Source of the DNA: Candidatus Brocadiia bacterium
Lineage (GTDB): Bacteria > Planctomycetota > PUPC01
Direction of reading: 5' to 3'
DNA length: 64,000 bases
Assembly: GCA_030605345.1 (NCBI GenBank)
Contig: JAUWIN010000001.1
Location: 5,253 to 69,252, forward strand
A program made the position numbers and the translations under genes. How positions within the stretch are numbered: position 1 is the stretch's first letter; each line of letters opens with the position of its first letter. The notes below the pieces were generated by a model that was given only the letters and a program-made list of their open reading frames with translations, ran no database searches and was not told where the DNA came from. Below are positions 33,294-58,686 of this stretch, in pieces.

Positions 33294-33468
33294 AACCTTC
33301 CCTCCTGAAGCCATTGTCATTACATGATTTTAGCGCTCGGCAGGGCGCAATCAAACTCAATTGCGCCGCCGGCGATTTGCGAGAGCCATTGACAACGCGG
33401 CCACAGGAGCAAAGAATAAGATAGAGGTCGTAGCTGGCGGTGTGTCCCAATCTGCGGAGATATTTCAA

Positions 33469-33882
33469 ATGGTTGCCTCCCCCAGAAAACGAAAAGCTCT
33501 CTATGGCGTTGCTGTCGGCTTCCTTCTTTCTGCCGGCATAGCCGCATGGTGGCTCCTGGGGCGAAACCCCGAGAGAGTCCATAGGGTATATGTTGCTCCT
33601 GACAATTCGTTCCAGGTGGTTGTTAGTGTTACGAAGCAGCATTGGCCCTACGGAGTCCAGGGCAACTACTACCTGACGGACATCACGCTGACACGCTGGC
33701 GCAAGGTCGACGACTACTTTGTGGACTTTCTGGACGACCCCGAGATGATCCTGCGATGGGATGAACACCGCCGAGGGTTTGTGTACATTGGTAAGATATC
33801 GGGGCCGGTCCTCATCAACTGCGAAACCTTTCCACTTGCACATCAGGACAAACCGTTTCCCTTTGACCTCGCGCCCCAGTAG
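33469..33882 (+). CDS. hypothetical membrane-anchored protein
   Basis: ORF with an N-terminal TM helix (ALYGVAVGFLLSAGIAAWWLL); no recognisable domain. Start ambiguous. Confidence 0.3.
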   Translation: MVASPRKRKALYGVAVGFLLSAGIAAWWLLGRNPERVHRVYVAPDNSFQVVVSVTKQHWPYGVQGNYYLTDITLTRWRKVDDYFVDFLDDPEMILRWDEHRRGFVYIGKISGPVLINCETFPLAHQDKPFPFDLAPQ

Positions 33883-34360
33883 GCGACTGGCCGCATGGAA
33901 TCGGATAAGTAACAGCACGATTGTGACGACAGCATACTAATTTTCGCAGCGTGTTGCGCGTTCGGCCGGGGGGTGGGGCCGACACAACCGCCACTATCGT
34001 TCCGGACAGTCTCAATCGGGTGATGGTTCAGCAGACCGCGACGCGCGCCCCGTTGTTTGGCCAATCGCTTTGCTTTGTCGGCCTGGCCGTTTGCAGCTTA
34101 TTGCGGCTTTTCGTCGCTACTCCCTTTCGCCGCCGGGTTTTTGTCCCCGAGGGTAATGCTCACTTGAACCGGCTCGCCGGGGACAGCGGCGCATGAGAAT
34201 CCGCAGTGCCCGGACGGCTGAAAAATCACCCAATCTCTGACGTGGTCGGGCGCTGGGGCGCCGGTGAACCTGGCGACATAAGCACTGGCCGCGCAGTGCG
34301 TTATGTGCAGGCCGAAAAAGCAGCCTGGCAACCCCAAATGTAATTTTTTGTAAAACGAGC

Positions 34361-34424
34361 AAAATGCTACAGCGGTTGTAGCAATGCTACAGCATTTGTA
34401 GCACGTATAAGGGTAGAGGCACGG
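34361..34424 (+). promoter_or_regulatory. conserved palindrome-rich ~65-nt element, copy 1, in the leader of a PEP-CTERM gene
   Basis: AAAATGCTACAGCGGTTGTAGCAATGCTACAGCATTTGTAGCACGTATAAGGGTAGAGG is ~85% identical to a reverse-complement copy at 42108-42177. Contains the 7-1-7 palindrome TGTAGCAaTGCTACA. Confidence 0.5.
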
Positions 34425-34759
34425 TGTAAGTGTGCCCTATGAGAAAGATAACGCGCGGAGCGAGAGAGCGGGATCACAGACGCGCCTTTGCCCGACACGG
34501 GTAGCGGTGCGCCAGCGACCCTAACCGGGGCGGTGCGTAAGCCGCACCCGAGGAGGTGACGCGGAGCCATGCGCGCTCCAACCAACCGTGGCAGCCAGCG
34601 GCGAGCGAAAGGAGGTGATGCGAGGCAAGCACAACCGATGCAACGCCAGCCGTGAATTTGCGGGCCGCGGGCGAATTGGCGGCCATCACCCACTGGAGAC
34701 GGCGCTCATTGTGTTTGGCGCATAAGACTAATCTGCATTTTTGTCGGAGGGACGAGAAA

Positions 34760-35491
34760 ATGAAAAGAGTGAGTTTGCTGGCGGCGCTCGTGTTACTGCT
34801 CACGATTGCCCCGGCGCAGGCGGTGTCGATCCAAATGACCGACGCCACCCCGCACTACGTCAATACCAAGGAGAACTGCTGCACGCCGGCGGAATGCGAC
34901 ATCTGCAAGATCACCGGGTTCTACAACTCGACCCCGGCGGCCGCGGGAGGAAACACAGACTTCACCAACGCGTTCAATGCCTGGGAAGACGACAACGAGG
35001 GCTGGACAATCGTTAACGCCGGGGCCTTGTCGGGAACGTTTCAGATTACCACGTTCGACGCCAAGTTCGACGGGTGCAGCGGCGGGGTGGAGTTCCAGGT
35101 CACCTATGTACCCGGCGAGGGCGACCCAGCGGTGGGCGATACGAACTGGGCACAGGCGATCGACACCAACGACCCCTTGGGCGGCAAAACCAGCCCCTAC
35201 CTGGACATCGCGTCCGGCAAGGACGAGGACCCGCCGCTCTATCCCCACTCATACCCGGACGGGTATTTCTATGACTGGCCCAAGCGAGGATGCCCGGATG
35301 ACTGCGAAGAGACCGTGAGTTGGGAAGGTCACCTGTACTTGACCGCGATCGACCGCGCCGCCGAGAAGTTGTCCCTCTACGAAGGGATCGTATGGGGCTT
35401 CGGGCTGGACTGCGTCGTGCCCGAGCCGGCGATGCTGCCCCTGCTGGGGCTGGGCGTCGCGGCCGTGCTCAACCGCCGCCGGAGGAGGTAA
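34760..35491 (+). CDS. PEP-CTERM sorting domain-containing exported protein
   Basis: Signal peptide MKRVSLLAALVLLLTIAPAQA. C-terminus VPEPAMLPLLGLGVAAVLNRRRRR is the PEP motif plus TM helix plus Arg cluster. Confidence 0.75.
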   Translation: MKRVSLLAALVLLLTIAPAQAVSIQMTDATPHYVNTKENCCTPAECDICKITGFYNSTPAAAGGNTDFTNAFNAWEDDNEGWTIVNAGALSGTFQITTFDAKFDGCSGGVEFQVTYVPGEGDPAVGDTNWAQAIDTNDPLGGKTSPYLDIASGKDEDPPLYPHSYPDGYFYDWPKRGCPDDCEETVSWEGHLYLTAIDRAAEKLSLYEGIVWGFGLDCVVPEPAMLPLLGLGVAAVLNRRRRR

Positions 35492-40620: not shown

Positions 40621-41862
40621 TTACCTGACCAATGAGCGGCGCCGGGTCCGCCGGAGGAAGCGCAGCATAATCAAGCCGAATGTCAGGGTTACACAGGCGG
40701 GCGGTTCTGGCACTGCCTCGAACGCCCCCATGTCGGCCTGTCCGCCGTAAAAGCGGGCCTTGCCGTCGAGGTCGCTGAGAATCACGTATTCGGCGGTGCC
40801 GGGAGCTATTCCGTCAACCACCACGTCCATATCCGCTTGGAACCCGGTGCTGGGGTTGACGTTGACGTAGCGAAAATCGCCAGCATCCACGGTGGCGCCG
40901 CTGTTTATACAGGGACTGCCGACCGCCAGCCTGAAGTCTTGCAGGAGCGGGTCGGTGGTGATGCTGCCCCCGTTGTCGAAGTCGTATTCACCATCGAAGA
41001 CAAAACTACCGCCGGTCGCCTTGTAAATATCGCTGGAGGAATAAAATCGTTTGTTGGGCAGTTCATAGCCGGGTCGCTTGTCTGCGGTGAGTTCAACCGG
41101 CGTGCTCTCCGCGGTGACGATGCTGTTGAAGAGCTGAAGATACCCATCGGTATTCCACGGCTCCTCGTCGTTGGAGATACCAATGGCATTGTCTGCGATG
41201 GTGGAATGGACGATGTAGGTGCTGAATCCATCGGTCGTATCCACGTAGCGCAGACCGGTCCCGAATCCTTCGATGAGTGAATTCATCACATATACCCCAT
41301 GGCAGTGGTCGTCGATGTGGATGCCGGTGCGGGGGTCAGTGTCCTTGCCGTCACCGGAGAGGTGACAGTTCTTGAGAACTGACCCGGCGGCGAAAGTGCT
41401 GAAGTACACGGCGCCGTCAACCGCGAACCCGTCAATGGTTATCGTGGTCAGGTGAACGTGAAAGACCTTGTCGCCCGAGCCAGTGATATGGCTTTTGCTT
41501 GAGAGTTCCTGGTGGACGTTCACCGGGGCGGATTCGCCAGTCTCCCACTTCATCCCTCCCTGGACGGTGTTGACCGTGACTGTGTCGGAGGTGAGGTTAA
41601 TCTGCCCCCCGCTGACCTCGTCCACGTCCTCCTCATAATCACTGTGCACTCGGATGTCCCAGTCGCCGGAACCGTTCGTTTGGATCCACTCATAGACCGC
41701 GTCGATTCCGCTCAGTCCCTCGTCCTCCATCCACTTCCATGAGGGGTCGTTATTGACGGCCGGCTGCGGCCCGCCGACGTAGTAGTAATTCGTCGCCAAC
41801 GCCGGCGCCGAAGCGGCGAAAAGAAAGACAAGAACAGTGCCGGTCACGAATTGCAGACGCAT
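40621..41862 (-). CDS. PEP-CTERM sorting domain-containing protein with a right-handed beta-helix (pectate-lyase-like) region
   Basis: Signal peptide MRLQFVTGTVLVFLFAASAPALA; a beta-helix-like repeat region (NCHLSGDG...HIDDHCHGVYVMNSLIEG...IADNAIGIS); C-terminus EAVPEPPACVTLTFGLIMLRFLRRTRRR. Confidence 0.75.
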   Translation of the reverse strand: MRLQFVTGTVLVFLFAASAPALATNYYYVGGPQPAVNNDPSWKWMEDEGLSGIDAVYEWIQTNGSGDWDIRVHSDYEEDVDEVSGGQINLTSDTVTVNTVQGGMKWETGESAPVNVHQELSSKSHITGSGDKVFHVHLTTITIDGFAVDGAVYFSTFAAGSVLKNCHLSGDGKDTDPRTGIHIDDHCHGVYVMNSLIEGFGTGLRYVDTTDGFSTYIVHSTIADNAIGISNDEEPWNTDGYLQLFNSIVTAESTPVELTADKRPGYELPNKRFYSSSDIYKATGGSFVFDGEYDFDNGGSITTDPLLQDFRLAVGSPCINSGATVDAGDFRYVNVNPSTGFQADMDVVVDGIAPGTAEYVILSDLDGKARFYGGQADMGAFEAVPEPPACVTLTFGLIMLRFLRRTRRRSLVR

Positions 41863-42107
41863 GGGTTGACCTCCTCATCCACCGGTGTCAGGTTATTCTG
41901 ACCGCCTATCCAAAAAGGTGCGTACGTCCCGTGGCGCCGGCCCATCCGACGCCCCAACATCGCTTGTTGTTGGCTGGCATCACATCCTTCTGACTGTGAG
42001 CCAGCTCCTCCGGCAGCGGTTGAGCATAGCCAGCCCGCTGGCCTCTGCAAAGCTGTCTTGCGGCCGGCCCGGTCTACCCCTGGGGCAGACCTTCCCGCCG
42101 CACGAAA

Positions 42108-42177
42108 CACCATCACCCTCTACTATAATACACGCTACAAATGCTGTAGCATTGCTACACGGCGTGTAGCAATTTTT
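42108..42177 (-). promoter_or_regulatory. conserved palindrome-rich ~65-nt element, copy 2, in the leader of the second PEP-CTERM gene
   Basis: Reverse complement AAAAATTGCTACACGCCGTGTAGCAATGCTACAGCATTTGTAGCGTGTATTATAGTAGAGGGTGATGG aligns with copy 1 (34361-34424) in the same orientation relative to the gene. Confidence 0.5.
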
Positions 42178-42612: not shown

Positions 42613-42641
42613 TTGACCACGCCCGTTCGCTACCGTATAAT
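42613..42641 (+). promoter_or_regulatory. sigma-70 promoter (TTGACC-N17-TATAAT) for tRNA-Phe
   Basis: TTGACC at 42613-42618, 17-nt spacer, TATAAT at 42636-42641, 11 nt upstream of the mature tRNA 5' end. Confidence 0.5.
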
Positions 42642-42652
42642 CCTCGGTCGAT

Positions 42653-42727
42653 GGGTAGGTAGCTCAGGGGTAGAGCACGGGACTGAAAATCCCGGTGTCG
42701 GCGGTTCAATTCCGCCCCTACCCACCA
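42653..42727 (+). tRNA. tRNA-Phe (anticodon GAA)
   Basis: GGGTAGGTAGCTCAGGGGTAGAGCACGGGACTGAAAATCCCGGTGTCGGCGGTTCAATTCCGCCCCTACCCACCA has a 7-bp acceptor stem, anticodon loop CTGAAAA and T-loop TTCAATT; CCA encoded. Confidence 0.85.
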
Positions 42728-42747: not shown

Positions 42748-43293
42748 ATGGAATTCAACGAACTGTTCAGCGCCGTTGTGGGCGATGTGCGGCGGTGTGG
42801 CGAATCGGTTGACCCGCAGCAGGTCTGCGCCCTCGTTGACGCGCTCGCCACAAAGCGGAAGGTGCTTCTTGTGGGCGCCGGCCGCAGCGGCGCGATGCTG
42901 GAGGCAATGCGGATACGCCTGGGTCATCTGGACATCGACACCCACGTGGCCGGCTCGCCGGGTTGTCCGCCCGTGCAGGAAGGTGACCTGGTGCTGGTCG
43001 CGTCCGGGGCCGGGCGAACTCCCGTGTCCCTCGAAACAGCCGCCAAGGCACACGACGCGGGAGCGCGGCTGGCCGTGATTACAGCGGACACGTCCTCGCC
43101 AATCGCCGGGCTCGCCGACATCATCGTTCACGTCCCCGCGCCGCTGACACTGCGGCACCCTACGCCCCACACCCTCCGGAGCCTGTTCGAGGAATGTCTG
43201 CTCATCATCTGCGATTGCGTCTGCCGGATGCTCCAGGACAGGCTCGGCCTGTCGGCTGCCGCCATGCAGTCCCGTCATTCGTGCGCGGGATGA
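42748..43293 (+). CDS. SIS (sugar isomerase) domain protein, 6-phospho-3-hexuloisomerase-like
   Basis: VLLVGAGRSGAMLEAM...GDLVLVASGAGRTPVSLETAAKAHDAGARLAVIT is the SIS phosphosugar-binding pattern. The ORF-track upstream extension overlaps tRNA-Phe, so the start was set at MEFNELF (42748). Confidence 0.6.
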   Translation: MEFNELFSAVVGDVRRCGESVDPQQVCALVDALATKRKVLLVGAGRSGAMLEAMRIRLGHLDIDTHVAGSPGCPPVQEGDLVLVASGAGRTPVSLETAAKAHDAGARLAVITADTSSPIAGLADIIVHVPAPLTLRHPTPHTLRSLFEECLLIICDCVCRMLQDRLGLSAAAMQSRHSCAG

Positions 43294-57562: not shown

Positions 57563-58378
57563 TTAGTTCCGCCGTCGGATGAGCGCGGCCCGCCTTGAGC
57601 GAAGTCCAAAGGCCAGAGCGCCCAACCCCAGCAGTGAGAGCGTGGCTGGCTCCGGGATGACCAGTTCAAAGTTGTCACAGTAGAGTTTGCTGCCATCGTC
57701 AAGGGCAAAGTCGCAACCCCAATCCCAGCCGCCGATCCTTAAGGTAAAGGTGCTACTGCCGTCCATGTCCCAATCGCCGACCGAGATGCTGCTGCCCAAT
57801 GCTTGAAATCCGGCGCCCTCGTTGTAATAGGAATGGAACGACGTTCCGTCCCACACCAGCTTCAGCGCTCCATCGCTGGCGGTCGCCGGGGCGTAATGCT
57901 CCTCCATCTCCTCTCCTTCGTCAGTGGTTTTCTCTATCCACCAGCCAAGATAGTACTCGTCTTCCCACCAGCCCCGGTCGAGGCCGAACCAGAGCCCGTC
58001 ACGGTAATCAGCGGTGTTCAGGACGACGACCTCCATTCCGTAGTCGTGATCGCTTTCGGGGCCACCGCCATAGTCGCCGACGTGTACGTCCAGCGTCACG
58101 GTCCAGCCGGTTCCGTACGGCGCGGGGGTTTTGAGCTTGTAGTAGGCCGCATTCTCCTCATCGGGCTCCAGCTCCCCCGGCGAAGTGTATTCCAGATGCT
58201 CATGGATTTCCGCTAGATCACCGTCCTCATCAGTACCATATTCCCACATCGCTGTGTTGCAGATGTTATCGTTGAAGTCATCGAACAAAGTTTGTCCCAC
58301 GGTAGGGCTCGCACACAATCCTGAGGCGACCAGAAGCATGACGATAAGGCACGGGGTGTTCTTCAAGGCTACGTTCAT
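57563..58378 (-). CDS. PEP-CTERM sorting domain-containing exported protein (acidic, Trp/Asp-rich)
   Basis: Signal peptide MNVALKNTPCLIVMLLVASGLCASP. C-terminus VIPEPATLSLLGLGALAFGLRSRRAALIRRR is the PEP-CTERM motif. Confidence 0.7.
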   Translation of the reverse strand: MNVALKNTPCLIVMLLVASGLCASPTVGQTLFDDFNDNICNTAMWEYGTDEDGDLAEIHEHLEYTSPGELEPDEENAAYYKLKTPAPYGTGWTVTLDVHVGDYGGGPESDHDYGMEVVVLNTADYRDGLWFGLDRGWWEDEYYLGWWIEKTTDEGEEMEEHYAPATASDGALKLVWDGTSFHSYYNEGAGFQALGSSISVGDWDMDGSSTFTLRIGGWDWGCDFALDDGSKLYCDNFELVIPEPATLSLLGLGALAFGLRSRRAALIRRRN

Positions 58379-58686
58379 TCTCCACTCTCCTTTCCGTTAG
58401 AGGGTTCAGGCTTCTCCAAGATACAGAACAGCGGGTGCAATTATTCCTGCCAGTTTCATCAGGTCGCAGCCATCACTCCCTTCAGTGATTCCTATTGGTC
58501 AGCCGTTATTCGTGCTCACGTTGCCTTACTGCCGACCTTTTCGGCTGATTTCACCATTCCATTGCAGCAAACTGCGTGCCAGGCGAAACCAAAATCGTAA
58601 GTATTTTGAGCGCGGGGAGTAAGCCCTTGATACATAAGGGCTTACACCACTTTGCCGGAGCCTCATACCCTGGCAGGACCGGCGCG

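What the first reader, a model, noticed from the sequence alone, without database searches (positions are those of the whole stretch)
34361..34424. Conserved ~65-nt palindrome-rich element (TGTAGCAaTGCTACA core) repeated in the long leaders of two different PEP-CTERM genes
Copy 1 (34361-34424, + strand, ~340 nt upstream of the PEP-CTERM gene at 34760) and copy 2 (42108-42177, - strand, ~250 nt upstream of the PEP-CTERM gene starting at 41862) are ~85% identical over ~65 nt. Both have the same orientation relative to the downstream gene, while flanking sequence is not conserved. The element has two consecutive 7-8 bp stems with 5-nt loops (TGCTACA-gcggt-TGTAGCA, then TGCTACA-gcatt-TGTAGCA), followed by a TATAAG / TATTAT box and GTAGAGG. 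Between copies the first stem shows a G.U to C-G change (g...t in copy 1, c...g in copy 2), which preserves RNA pairing. Both genes have unusually long non-coding leaders (~800 bp of ORF-free sequence). This looks like a dedicated cis-regulatory DNA operator array or a structured leader RNA controlling exosortase substrates. PEP-CTERM genes are known to be under PrsK/PrsR-type control in some organisms, but this motif is not one I can assign.
Basis: seen in the sequence. Interest (0 to 1): 0.75.

Follow-up and report, generated by a model that had tools for sequence, protein, structure and literature searches.

The report
Regulator-binding repeat array upstream of PEP-CTERM genes
Two surface-protein (PEP-CTERM) genes of a Planctomycete each carry the same 39-bp array of four inverted 7-bp repeats, which is not specific to these genes: it belongs to a widespread, undescribed family of arrays that in mobile elements sits directly after the gene of an uncharacterised, probably DNA-binding, regulator.

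Summary
Each copy (34365-34403 on +, 42171-42133 on -) has four half-sites, TGCTACA-N5-TGTAGCA-N1-TGCTACA-N5-TGTAGC(A/G). Each copy points at a PEP-CTERM gene. There are 4 dyads in the window against 0.07 expected by chance.

The array is not a PEP-CTERM-specific signal. Public genomes, viral contigs and metagenomes hold about 50 arrays with the same 7-5-7-1-7-5-7 geometry. They come in several half-site variants, and both arms and both dyads change together.

In Planctomycete and other mobile elements the array usually lies 12-24 nt after the stop codon of an uncharacterised protein family with no Pfam hit, which I call "W-tail". Its predicted fold resembles OmpR/SARP winged-helix DNA-binding domains. 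One residue of a conserved C-terminal helix tracks the half-site variant.

Best reading: a tandem DNA operator for a W-tail-type regulator that overlaps a sigma-70-like promoter with a TATAAG/TATTAT -10 box. No such regulator is encoded in the 64-kb window.

An RNA tandem-hairpin role, similar to nut or put sites, is not excluded. An HxlR-family operator with the identical motif in other phyla is probably a look-alike. I found no Rfam, Pfam or PHROG match, and the one literature search on the motif returned only unrelated papers.

The parts
34336..34364 (+). A/T-rich tract directly 5' of array 1 (aaatgtaattttttgtaaaacgagcaaaa)
   Evidence: Read from the sequence. An A-rich tract 5' of the array recurs in related arrays; A at position -3 occurs in 30 of 40.
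34365..34383 (+). Array 1, dyad 1: TGCTACA gcggt TGTAGCA
34385..34403 (+). Array 1, dyad 2: TGCTACA gcatt TGTAGCA. Its centre lies 20 bp from the centre of dyad 1. Half-site 3 with the preceding A (ATGCTA) is the proposed weak -35.
   Evidence: The promoter assignment is an inference; one search found no site that passes the strict sigma-70 consensus scan.
34406..34411 (+). TATAAG, a -10-like hexamer 16 nt after ATGCTA (inferred -10)
   Evidence: Read from the sequence. A TAnnnT-type hexamer occupies the same position after copy 2 (TATTAT) and in the L008 lineage (TAGGGT).
34413..34436 (+). GTAGAGG followed by the small hairpin GGCAC-ggtgtaagt-GTGCC. This is the conserved 3' extension and the inferred start region of the transcript.
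   Evidence: Shared with copy 2 and the L008/L027 lineage (GGTAGAG..GGTGTAA). It resembles the GAGGCAC..TAAC block after arrays of mobile elements.
34760..35491 (+). PEP-CTERM gene 1 (243 aa), the downstream target
   Evidence: translation; TIGR02595. It is an orphan protein; its only database match is itself.
42153..42171 (-). Array 2, dyad 1: TGCTACA cgccg TGTAGCA (read on the - strand)
42133..42151 (-). Array 2, dyad 2: TGCTACA gcatt TGTAGCG (read on the - strand)
   Evidence: A terminal G in half-site 4 is the commonest state in the family, 25 of 40.
42125..42130 (-). TATTAT, a -10-like hexamer 16 nt after ATGCTA (inferred -10)
   Evidence: Inference, as for copy 1.
42117..42123 (-). GTAGAGG, the conserved 3' extension
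40621..41862 (-). PEP-CTERM gene 2 (413 aa, beta-helix with choice-of-anchor Q domain), the downstream target

Best explanation
Each copy is a double-stranded DNA operator: two 19-bp dyads (TGCTACA-N5-TGTAGCA) whose centres are 20 bp apart, so two dimers of one regulator would sit on almost the same face of the helix. The operator belongs to a portable regulatory cassette that is common in mobile elements of Planctomycetota and some other phyla.

The cognate binder is most likely a member of an uncharacterised protein family, here called "W-tail". These proteins are about 240-420 aa. They share a conserved module, FRRxGxxW...GLxYIAxLL...(K/R)VRKSVSxA(V/I)xR...LGRHL...Y.P....W-x-x-stop, and the model shows an OmpR/SARP-like winged-helix fold.

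In the window the second dyad overlaps a sigma-70-like promoter: weak -35 ATGCTA, 16-nt spacer, -10 TATAAG or TATTAT. A bound regulator would therefore most likely block RNA polymerase, that is, repress. The two PEP-CTERM genes would be switched together. The regulator is encoded elsewhere in the genome, possibly on a prophage or island.

**Shown:**
- the architecture of the array;
- membership of the array family;
- the adjacency of array and W-tail gene in other loci;
- the co-variation between one protein residue and the half-site.

**Inferred:**
- that DNA rather than RNA is the target;
- the promoter assignment;
- the sign of regulation;
- the existence of a trans-encoded regulator in this genome.
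For: 1. **A large family with one fixed geometry.**
   - An exact-pattern scan for the window's own motif found 10 loci in genomes, 9 in viral contigs and 16 in metagenomes, all with the same 7-5-7-1-7-5-7 layout.
   - A degenerate scan added arrays with half-sites TGCCACA, TGTCACA and TGTTACA.

2. **Both arms and both dyads change together.**
   - On 32 distinct arrays, 95.8% of arm positions are complementary.
   - Positions 3/5 and 4/4 switch C-G to T-A in both dyads, giving 32 double changes against 8.2 in shuffles.
   - The two dyads of an array carry the same variant at position 4 in 31 of 32.
   - One protein reading four equivalent half-sites would produce this. Base-pairing alone would not require it.

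3. **Adjacency to the W-tail gene.**
   - A W-tail gene ends 12-24 nt before the array in L001, L002, L038, L040, L043, L046 and L047, and 131-284 nt before it in L022, L028 and L008/L027.
   - In loci found by protein homology alone, the array follows the gene in 5 of 7: L036, L052, L055, L056 and L062.

4. **Specificity co-variation.**
   - Residue x of the helix (K/R)VRKSVSxA(V/I) is Asn (Arg once) in all six lineages with TGCTACA arrays, and Asn with TGTTACA.
   - It is Met or Thr in all eight lineages with TGCCACA or TGTCACA arrays.

5. **Fold.**
   - The AlphaFold model has mean pLDDT 84.
   - The same module is the N-terminal (effector-position) domain of about 1000-aa AAA_16/TPR STAND proteins.

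6. **The window arrays resemble the mobile-element class, not the HxlR class.**
   - They have G+C-rich spacers ending in T.
   - They have an A-rich 5' tract.
   - Copy 2 ends in TGTAGCG.
   - They carry the 3' GAGGCAC/GGTGTAA block.

7. **RNA pairing is imperfect where the transcript direction is known.** Hairpin 2 has C.A or A.C mismatches in L043, L055 and L056 and in L062, while the inner CACA/TGTG core stays invariant.

8. **No described RNA family.** Rfam gives no match.
Against: - No W-tail homologue is encoded in the 64-kb window, by tblastn or by HMM on all stop-to-stop ORFs. The binder in this organism is therefore hypothetical.
- The array is strand-asymmetric, which a purely symmetric dimer site does not predict. 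Loop 1 is C-G-n-T-T in most arrays, and half-site 4 usually ends in G.
- In many mobile elements the array lies at a fixed 22-24 nt from the stop codon. In five loci a strong intrinsic terminator follows it before the next gene. That layout suits an RNA or antitermination device at least as well as an operator.
- The region 3' of the array in the sigma-gene loci is a conserved, apparently structured leader.
- The co-variation between residue x and the half-site is partly confounded by relatedness of the TGCCACA-type proteins.
- The promoter is weak by consensus. The strict scan found none.
- The Planctomycetota metagenome contig L057 (PurL 81% identical) lacks both the array and the PEP-CTERM gene at the syntenic tRNA-Phe locus. 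Conservation by descent could therefore not be shown.
Confidence: 0.5

Rival explanations
1. **RNA device.** The array is transcribed and works as two tandem 7-bp hairpins with pentaloops, separated by one base. These would sit in the 5' leader or in an intercistronic RNA. They would be bound by the W-tail protein or act on RNA polymerase, controlling read-through of downstream terminators or translation. Phage nut (boxB-N) and HK022 put elements work this way (from my own knowledge).
For: - The asymmetry is strand-specific and always the same way round relative to the downstream gene. Loop 1 is CGnTT, U.G closes hairpin 2 in 21 of 32 arrays, and G.U occurs at the loop-closing pair in L036, L047, L052 and L055.
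- Within single arrays the two hairpins sometimes differ by a compensated pair: L036 has T-A versus C-G, and L055 has U-A changed to C-G.
- L011 and L023 have an expanded second loop with an extended stem.
- Strong intrinsic terminators follow the array in L001, L020, L022, L036 and L040.
- The sequence directly 3' of the array is a conserved leader with covarying hairpins and a hairpin that sequesters the Shine-Dalgarno sequence.
- The array sits at a fixed distance from the stop codon of the upstream gene.
Against: - Both hairpins keep the same sequence variant in 31 of 32 arrays, which structure alone does not need.
- Stem length, loop length and the 1-nt linker never vary among the arrays recovered. 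The search patterns imposed this geometry, but the five protein-first loci that carry an array show it too.
- At positions free of search bias, forward-strand G.U (about 3 cases) is no commoner than C.A (3-4 cases).
- Hairpin 2 falls to 4-5 pairs in L043, L055, L056 and L062.
- In copy 1 the forward strand folds best as one nested hairpin, not as two tandem hairpins.
- The W-tail model resembles DNA-binding winged helices.
- In the window a -10-like box lies 3' of the array, and no terminator is predicted in either leader.
- There is no Rfam match.
Confidence: 0.22
2. **Operator of a host HxlR/DUF24-family regulator.** This is a redox- or electrophile-sensing winged-helix regulator encoded elsewhere in the genome. 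Mobile elements and PEP-CTERM genes would have recruited its box.
For: - Arrays of the same geometry built on the TGCTACA/TGTAGCA half-site (one half-site imperfect in L004, L010 and L024) sit 13-40 nt from the start codon of HxlR-family genes (PF01638, E=2e-11). L004, L005, L006/L032 are from Alphaproteobacteria (Bradyrhizobium, Afipia, one unclassified); L010 is from Flavobacterium; L024 is a low-G+C metagenome contig whose HxlR is 63% identical to L010's. The proteins are 45-63% identical across phyla.
- DUF24-family regulators bind 7-bp-arm inverted repeats, for example HypR at GTATCAAAATTGATAC (PMC3351151).
Against: - There is no HxlR homologue in the window, in any Planctomycete or mobile-element locus held, or in viral contigs.
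- The HxlR-class arrays have A+T-rich spacers that hold -10-like hexamers. In L005 and L006/L032 all four half-sites are perfect, so both strands match the pattern.
- The HxlR-class arrays lack the CGnTT loop and the 3' GAGGCAC block. The window arrays have the features of the mobile-element class.
- The mobile-element family spans four half-site variants, so a chance coincidence of one variant with an unrelated operator of common geometry is plausible.
Confidence: 0.1
3. **Site or relic of a mobile element with no present regulatory role.** The arrays could be replication iterons next to an A/T-rich unwinding tract, a recombination or cassette-boundary site, or a reverse-strand terminator. 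They would have been left behind or carried along when the PEP-CTERM genes were acquired.
For: - 16 loci carry one integrase family within 2.5 kb of the array. L003, L009 and L029 carry other integrases.
- The array precedes primase and DnaB genes in L001 and L002.
- L007 has two arrays that flank a 3-gene cassette.
- Copy 2 lies 480 nt from tRNA-Phe, where synteny with the Planctomycetota contig L057 ends.
- On the reverse strand both window copies score as hairpin plus T-run terminators.
- The leader of gene 2 contains a decayed PEP-CTERM tail fragment.
Against: - The window holds no integrase, W-tail gene or replication gene.
- Both copies keep all four half-sites nearly perfect, with one change in 28 positions in copy 2. 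Both keep the same orientation and a similar distance to a PEP-CTERM gene. Decay would not preserve this.
- No gene converges on either copy that would need a terminator.
- Two repeats are few for an iteron origin.
- A 5-bp spacer is too short for the 6-8 bp overlap region of a tyrosine-recombinase core site (from my own knowledge).
Confidence: 0.1

Closest known systems
Tandem dyad operators of phage and mobile-element master regulators that come in several specificity (immunity) classes, such as the lambdoid repressor/operator systems (from my own knowledge)
   Same: - Short dyad-symmetric sites repeated in tandem at about two helical turns.
- The sites lie between the regulator gene and the early operon.
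- Related elements carry different half-site variants that change together with the regulator.
   Different: - The putative regulator has no detectable sequence similarity to CI/Cro/Xre proteins.
- The array lies 3' of the regulator gene and is co-directional with it, often only 12-24 nt after the stop codon, and sometimes before a terminator.
- Copies also occur in front of chromosomal PEP-CTERM genes with no regulator nearby.
OmpR/PhoB- and SARP-type winged-helix activators and their heptamer repeats (for example the AfsR-afsS promoter complex, PDB 8hvr; OmpR, PhoB, ToxR, CadC)
   Same: - The recognised units are 7-bp repeats close to or overlapping the -35 region.
- The same domain is fused to STAND ATPase/TPR modules, as in SARP/AfsR.
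   Different: - These families usually bind direct repeats with 11-bp (or 22-bp) spacing. Here the heptamers alternate in orientation with 12-8-12 spacing.
- No sequence-level match to Pfam Trans_reg_C or BTAD was found.
- The helix that co-varies with the DNA lies in the C-terminal part, not in the region I would align to the OmpR recognition helix. I did not resolve this.
Lambda Q / PR' / tR' and N-nut or HK022 put antitermination modules (from my own knowledge)
   Same: - The gene order is regulator gene, cis site, short transcribed stretch, strong terminator, then the next block of genes. This occurs in L001, L020, L022, L036 and L040.
- There are two small stem-loops separated by one base, as in put RNA.
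   Different: - No sequence or fold similarity to N or Q was found.
- Terminators are absent in most loci and in the window.
- Whether the hairpins are transcribed is unknown.
HxlR/DUF24-family operators (HypR box 7-2-7, PMC3351151)
   Same: - Seven-bp-arm inverted repeats.
- An array of the same geometry on the TGCTACA half-site is the apparent auto-operator of one HxlR subfamily in Alphaproteobacteria and Bacteroidetes.
   Different: - No HxlR gene accompanies the window arrays or any mobile-element array.
- Spacer composition, flanks and symmetry differ.
PrsK/PrsR two-component and sigma-54 control of PEP-CTERM genes (PMC1569441; RpoN-dependent PEP-CTERM gene, PMC9850573)
   Same: Both are cis-control of PEP-CTERM protein genes. 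The third PEP-CTERM gene of this window fits this known scheme.
   Different: The two array-bearing genes have no GG-N10-GC promoter. The array has no resemblance to enhancer-binding-protein sites or to sigma-54 promoters.

Membership tests
   Both window copies match it. Copy 1 is perfect; copy 2 has one change, a terminal G, which is the majority state of the family.
   - Copy 1: aaaa 5' of the array, spacers GCGGT and GCATT, and GTAGAGGCACGGTGTAAG 3' of it.
- Copy 2: aaaaat 5' of the array, second spacer GCATT, and GTAGAGGGTGATGGTGTTT 3' of it, which is a weaker match.
   The window holds no homologue by tblastn or by HMM search of all ORFs of at least 40 codons. The upstream genes are an unrelated 173-aa ORF (33361-33882) for copy 1, and tRNA-Phe plus a SIS-domain gene for copy 2.
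HxlR/DUF24 auto-operator | An adjacent or divergent HxlR-family gene; A+T-rich spacers that carry the -10 elements | tested here: not met
   The window has no HxlR gene. Its spacers are G+C-rich.
PrsR / sigma-54-dependent PEP-CTERM promoter | A TGGCAC-N5-TTGCW (-24/-12) promoter upstream of the gene | tested here: not met
   The only perfect match lies at 58566-58581 (-), upstream of the third PEP-CTERM gene. Neither array-bearing leader has one.
Described structured RNA (any Rfam family) | A covariance-model hit at or near the gathering score | tested here: not met
   At gathering threshold only tRNAs match. In E-value mode on 33880-34800 the only hit is a chance match with E=8.5. Related loci give only tRNAs.
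REP / MITE-like dispersed repeat | Many copies per genome, in random orientation relative to genes, in unrelated intergenic regions | tested here: inconclusive
   The 64-kb window holds only two copies, both oriented towards PEP-CTERM genes. Every other locus holds one array, except L007 with two. The rest of this genome could not be read.
Intrinsic terminator (reverse strand) | A G+C-rich hairpin followed by a T-run at the end of a convergent transcription unit | tested here: inconclusive
   Both copies score as hairpin plus T-run on the strand opposite to the PEP-CTERM genes. No gene converges on them, and the stems have only 3-4 G-C pairs.
nut/put-type antitermination RNA | The element is transcribed, lies upstream of terminators, and is required in cis on the RNA | not testable with these tools
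   Terminators follow the array in 5 mobile-element loci, but none is predicted in the window leaders. No transcript data are available.

The most novel reading that the evidence does not exclude
The arrays and the W-tail proteins form an undescribed master-regulator and operator system of Planctomycete (and other) mobile elements, with several specificity classes. It would sit at the switch between defence cargo and an ECF-sigma-led replication operon.

In this genome the operator has been recruited in front of PEP-CTERM surface-protein genes. A regulator encoded on a prophage or island would then control the host's exosortase substrates in trans, remodelling the cell surface when the element changes state.
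Probability: 0.3. Interest if true: 0.65.

Novelty: new member of a known kind. Interest (0 to 1): 0.5.

Why it matters
Gene regulation in Planctomycetota is almost unexplored. As far as I know, PEP-CTERM genes have been tied only to PrsK/PrsR and sigma-54 (PMC1569441, PMC9850573).

This finding offers three things:
- a second, testable control element for PEP-CTERM genes;
- a candidate regulator family with no Pfam, NCBIfam or PHROG assignment in my scans, whose module is also the N-terminal domain of large STAND ATPases;
- a predicted residue-to-base specificity rule: Asn with T at half-site position 4, Met or Thr with C.

It also outlines a conserved control region of Planctomycete mobile elements that carry restriction-modification and BREX-like cargo. 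Thermostilla marina carries the module and, as far as I know, is cultured, so binding and transcript-mapping experiments are feasible.

If the element proves to be only a promoter-operator cassette of local use, the interest is modest.

Tried and rejected
- **HxlR operator as the main reading (adopted first, then demoted).** The first genome scan suggested it, because five lineages have the array at HxlR genes. I demoted it after the degenerate viral scan showed a larger family with other half-sites linked to W-tail genes. HxlR relatives were absent from viral contigs and from all mobile-element loci.
- **Orthologue-based test of the PEP-CTERM link (failed).** PEP-CTERM protein 1 is an orphan. 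Exact look-ups of both proteins found no contig.
- **Synteny test (uninformative for conservation).** Contigs from related Planctomycetota (PurL 79-81% identical) share only part of the neighbourhood. L057 keeps purL-purQ-SIS-tRNA-Phe; L059 and L060 keep only purL-purQ. None has the array or the PEP-CTERM gene.
- **Sigma-54 promoter in the two leaders.** None found.
- **ECF41-type promoter (TGTCACA-N16-CGTC, recalled from memory).** The spacing does not fit.
- **Sigma-70 promoter built from TTGTAG or TTGCTA of half-sites 1-2.** The spacers do not fit.
- **Integrase arm site or attP core.** Rejected as a general explanation, because arrays occur without integrases and the spacer is too short.
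- **Small ORFs in the leaders.** They are not conserved between the copies.
- **Literature search for the raw motif.** It returned only unrelated papers (primer-type occurrences).
- **Foldseek against the PDB and a profile search of PDB sequences for the W-tail family.** Nothing significant.
- **Wobble-asymmetry test of RNA versus DNA.** Too few cases free of search bias (about 3 G.U versus 3-4 C.A) to decide.
Full report
**1. What is in the window**

The two copies are an inverted repeat of 59 nt at 81% identity, arms 34361-34419 and 42117-42175. The core of each is a 39-bp array of four 7-bp half-sites:
- Copy 1 (34365-34403, +): TGCTACA gcggt TGTAGCA a TGCTACA gcatt TGTAGCA.
- Copy 2 (42171-42133, -): TGCTACA cgccg TGTAGCA a TGCTACA gcatt TGTAGCG.

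The dyad occurs four times in 64 kb against 0.07 expected. A relaxed scan for any similar dyad finds nothing else.

Each array is followed after 2 nt by a -10-like hexamer (TATAAG or TATTAT) and then by GTAGAGG. An A-rich tract precedes each.

Both arrays point at genes for PEP-CTERM proteins, 34760-35491 (+) and 41862-40621 (-). The ATG lies 356 and 270 nt downstream.

The window comes from a member of the Planctomycetota. The named PurL relatives are all Planctomycetes or Brocadiia.

**2. The array is a member of a widespread family**

An exact scan for three half-sites (TGCTACA-N5-TGTAGCA-N-TGCTACA) returned 10 loci in species-representative genomes, 9 in viral contigs and 16 in metagenomes. 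With 21 specified bases, chance expectation is below one per collection by my estimate. All hits showed the same layout, most with a fourth half-site.

The contexts fall into three classes:
- **(a) HxlR class.** Divergent or upstream operators of HxlR-family genes in Alphaproteobacteria and Bacteroidetes.
- **(b) Integrase class.** Phage-like contigs with one integrase family within 2.5 kb (16 loci), plus other integrases.
- **(c) W-tail class.** Loci where the array follows a gene whose product ends ...YNPxxPxEW-x-x-stop.

A degenerate viral scan (TGYYACA...TGTRRCA...) then revealed arrays of identical geometry built from TGCCACA/TGTGGCA, TGTCACA/TGTGACA and TGTTACA/TGTAACA.

On 32 distinct arrays, 95.8% of arm positions are complementary. 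Positions 3/5 and 4/4 switch between C-G and T-A in both dyads. The two dyads of one array carry the same variant at position 4 in 31 of 32.

**3. The partner protein**

The upstream gene family, which I call "W-tail", has no Pfam, NCBIfam or PHROG assignment in my scans.

It ends 12-24 nt before the array in seven lineages and 131-284 nt before it in three more.

A profile search found 101 homologues. They include proteins of Planctomycetaceae MAGs, Thermostilla marina and a Nitrospiraceae MAG. They also include about 1000-aa AAA_16/TPR STAND proteins in which the module is N-terminal.

In seven loci reached through the protein alone, five have the array after the gene.

In the protein-first loci that carry the array (L052, L055, L056), the gene order is similar:
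1. defence cargo (type I restriction-modification, BREX-like);
2. in L055 and L056, an Xre repressor plus an M78 peptidase;
3. a 360-400-aa unknown protein;
4. the W-tail gene;
5. the array;
6. a conserved leader of about 150 nt;
7. an ECF-like sigma gene;
8. phage-type replication genes.

In the conserved helix (K/R)VRKSVSxA(V/I), residue x tracks the half-site:
- It is Asn (once Arg) wherever half-site position 4 is T (L001, L002, L008, L022, L028, L047, L036).
- It is Met or Thr wherever position 4 is C (L038, L040, L043, L046, L052, L055, L056, L062).

I read this as specificity co-variation between protein and site. The caveat is that the Met-type proteins are related to each other.

**4. 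To which class do the window arrays belong?**

They share the features of the mobile-element class rather than the HxlR class:
- G+C-rich spacers ending in T;
- an A-rich 5' tract;
- a terminal G in copy 2;
- a 3' GAGGCAC...GTAA block.

The nearest analogue is the Planctomycetota lineage L008/L025/L027/L033. There a 239-aa W-tail protein lies 284 nt upstream of a TGCTACA array. The array is followed by TAGGGT, GGTAGAG and GGTGTAA, then by two small genes and, in L027 and L033 (the two loci that extend far enough downstream), a PEP-CTERM gene.

The window itself has no W-tail, HxlR or integrase gene.

**5. DNA or RNA?**

For DNA:
- the spacing never varies among the arrays recovered (the search patterns imposed it, but the five protein-first loci that carry an array show it too);
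- all four half-sites of an array carry the same sequence variant;
- the predicted fold is DNA-binding-like;
- pairing of hairpin 2 is imperfect, with C.A mismatches in loci where the transcript direction is known;
- the inner CACA/TGTG core is invariant;
- in the window, a -10-like box lies just 3' of the array.

For RNA:
- the strand asymmetry is consistent (loop CGnTT, U.G closing pair);
- a few compensated differences occur between the two hairpins of one array;
- the distance from the upstream stop codon is fixed;
- strong terminators follow the array in five loci;
- a conserved structured leader begins right after the array.

The counts of G.U versus C.A at positions free of search bias are too small to decide. 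ViennaRNA folds copy 1 as one nested hairpin and copy 2 as two tandem hairpins, so folding is ambiguous too.

I put the DNA operator at about 0.5 and the RNA device at about 0.2.

**6. Proposed mechanism in the window (inference)**

Two dimers of a W-tail-type regulator with the Asn-type helix, encoded elsewhere, bind the two dyads. Dyad 2 covers the region from the weak -35 (ATGCTA) to 2 nt before the -10 (TATAAG or TATTAT). Occupancy should therefore exclude RNA polymerase and co-repress both PEP-CTERM genes. Release would start transcripts near GTAGAGG with leaders of about 340 and 255 nt.

Activation is not excluded. The -35 is poor, and SARP/OmpR-type proteins activate from -35-overlapping repeats.

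**7. Relation to known systems and novelty**

The element is not the PrsK/PrsR-sigma54 scheme. That scheme is represented in the window by the third PEP-CTERM gene, which has TGGCACgcagtTTGCT at 58566-58581 and no array (PMC1569441, PMC9850573).

It is not an Rfam family.

It works like a phage or mobile-element operator with several specificity classes. Its layout also recalls the Q/PR'/tR' and nut/put modules.

I found no description of the array or of the W-tail family. Rfam, Pfam, NCBIfam and PHROG gave no match, and the single literature search on the motif itself returned only unrelated papers.

I rate it a new member of a known kind: an operator with its cognate regulator family. Interest is moderate.

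**8. Limits**

- Only 64 kb of the genome is available.
- The metagenome contig L057 (PurL 81% identical) lacks the array and the PEP-CTERM gene beyond tRNA-Phe.
- PEP-CTERM protein 1 is an orphan.
- There are no transcript data.
- Array sampling was partly defined by my search patterns.

Noticed in passing
window 58566-58581 (-), upstream of 57563-58378 (-): The third PEP-CTERM gene of the window has no array. It has a perfect sigma54-type -24/-12 promoter, TGGCACgcagtTTGCT, about 190 nt upstream of its ATG. The window therefore holds two different control schemes for PEP-CTERM genes.
   Followed up: partly
window 42005-42031 versus 35461-35487: The leader of PEP-CTERM gene 2 contains 22-27 nt that are 89-95% identical to the 3' end of PEP-CTERM gene 1. 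In one frame it reads ..GLAMLNRCRRSW.., a decayed PEP-CTERM tail. Part of the long leader may be a gene remnant.
   Followed up: partly
L004, L005, L006/L032, L010, L024: An array of the same geometry on the TGCTACA half-site, with A+T-rich spacers, is the apparent auto-operator of one HxlR-family subfamily. In Bradyrhizobium and Afipia it is divergent from a carboxymuconolactone-decarboxylase gene. In Flavobacterium (L010) and a Bacteroidetes-like contig (L024) it lies upstream of an HxlR gene followed by a DinB-like gene. I found no description of this putative operator.
   Followed up: partly
L038 2510-2650, L046, L047, L043, L041, L052 7221-7360, L055, L056, L062: A conserved leader of about 150 nt lies between the array and ECF-like sigma genes of Planctomycete mobile elements. 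It has several covarying hairpins and a CCUCCGG...CCGGAGG hairpin over the Shine-Dalgarno sequence. It has no Rfam match and may be a cis-regulatory RNA.
   Followed up: partly
L052, L055, L056 (and L053, rearranged): A recurrent mobile-element layout in Planctomycetota: type I restriction-modification or BREX-like cargo; an Xre repressor plus M78 peptidase in L055 and L056; an unknown 360-400-aa protein overlapping the W-tail gene; then an ECF-like sigma gene and phage-type replication genes (AAA_24, DUF669, DEAD helicase, Prim-Pol).
   Followed up: partly
L007 35-61 and 1140-1178: Two arrays 1.1 kb apart, with similar 5' flanks, bracket a three-gene minus-strand cassette next to an integrase. 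The outer copy is cut after the third half-site. This suggests the array is a recombination-prone module boundary.
   Followed up: partly
L011-L013, L015, L016, L018, L019, L026, L030, L031, L034: In the integrase-class phage contigs the array points at the 3' end of the integrase gene. A conserved motif, TGCGTACnAnGCGCCGTAC, follows 60-75 nt later. It may be an att core or a small RNA. It is unexplained.
   Followed up: no
window 42748-43293 (+), 42653-42727 (+): A 181-aa SIS-domain gene starts 20 nt after tRNA-Phe, which has a near-consensus promoter (TTGACC-17-TATAAT) at 42613-42641. The contig L057 (PurL 81% identical) keeps purL-purQ-SIS-tRNA-Phe; its synteny with the window ends at this tRNA.
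   Followed up: partly
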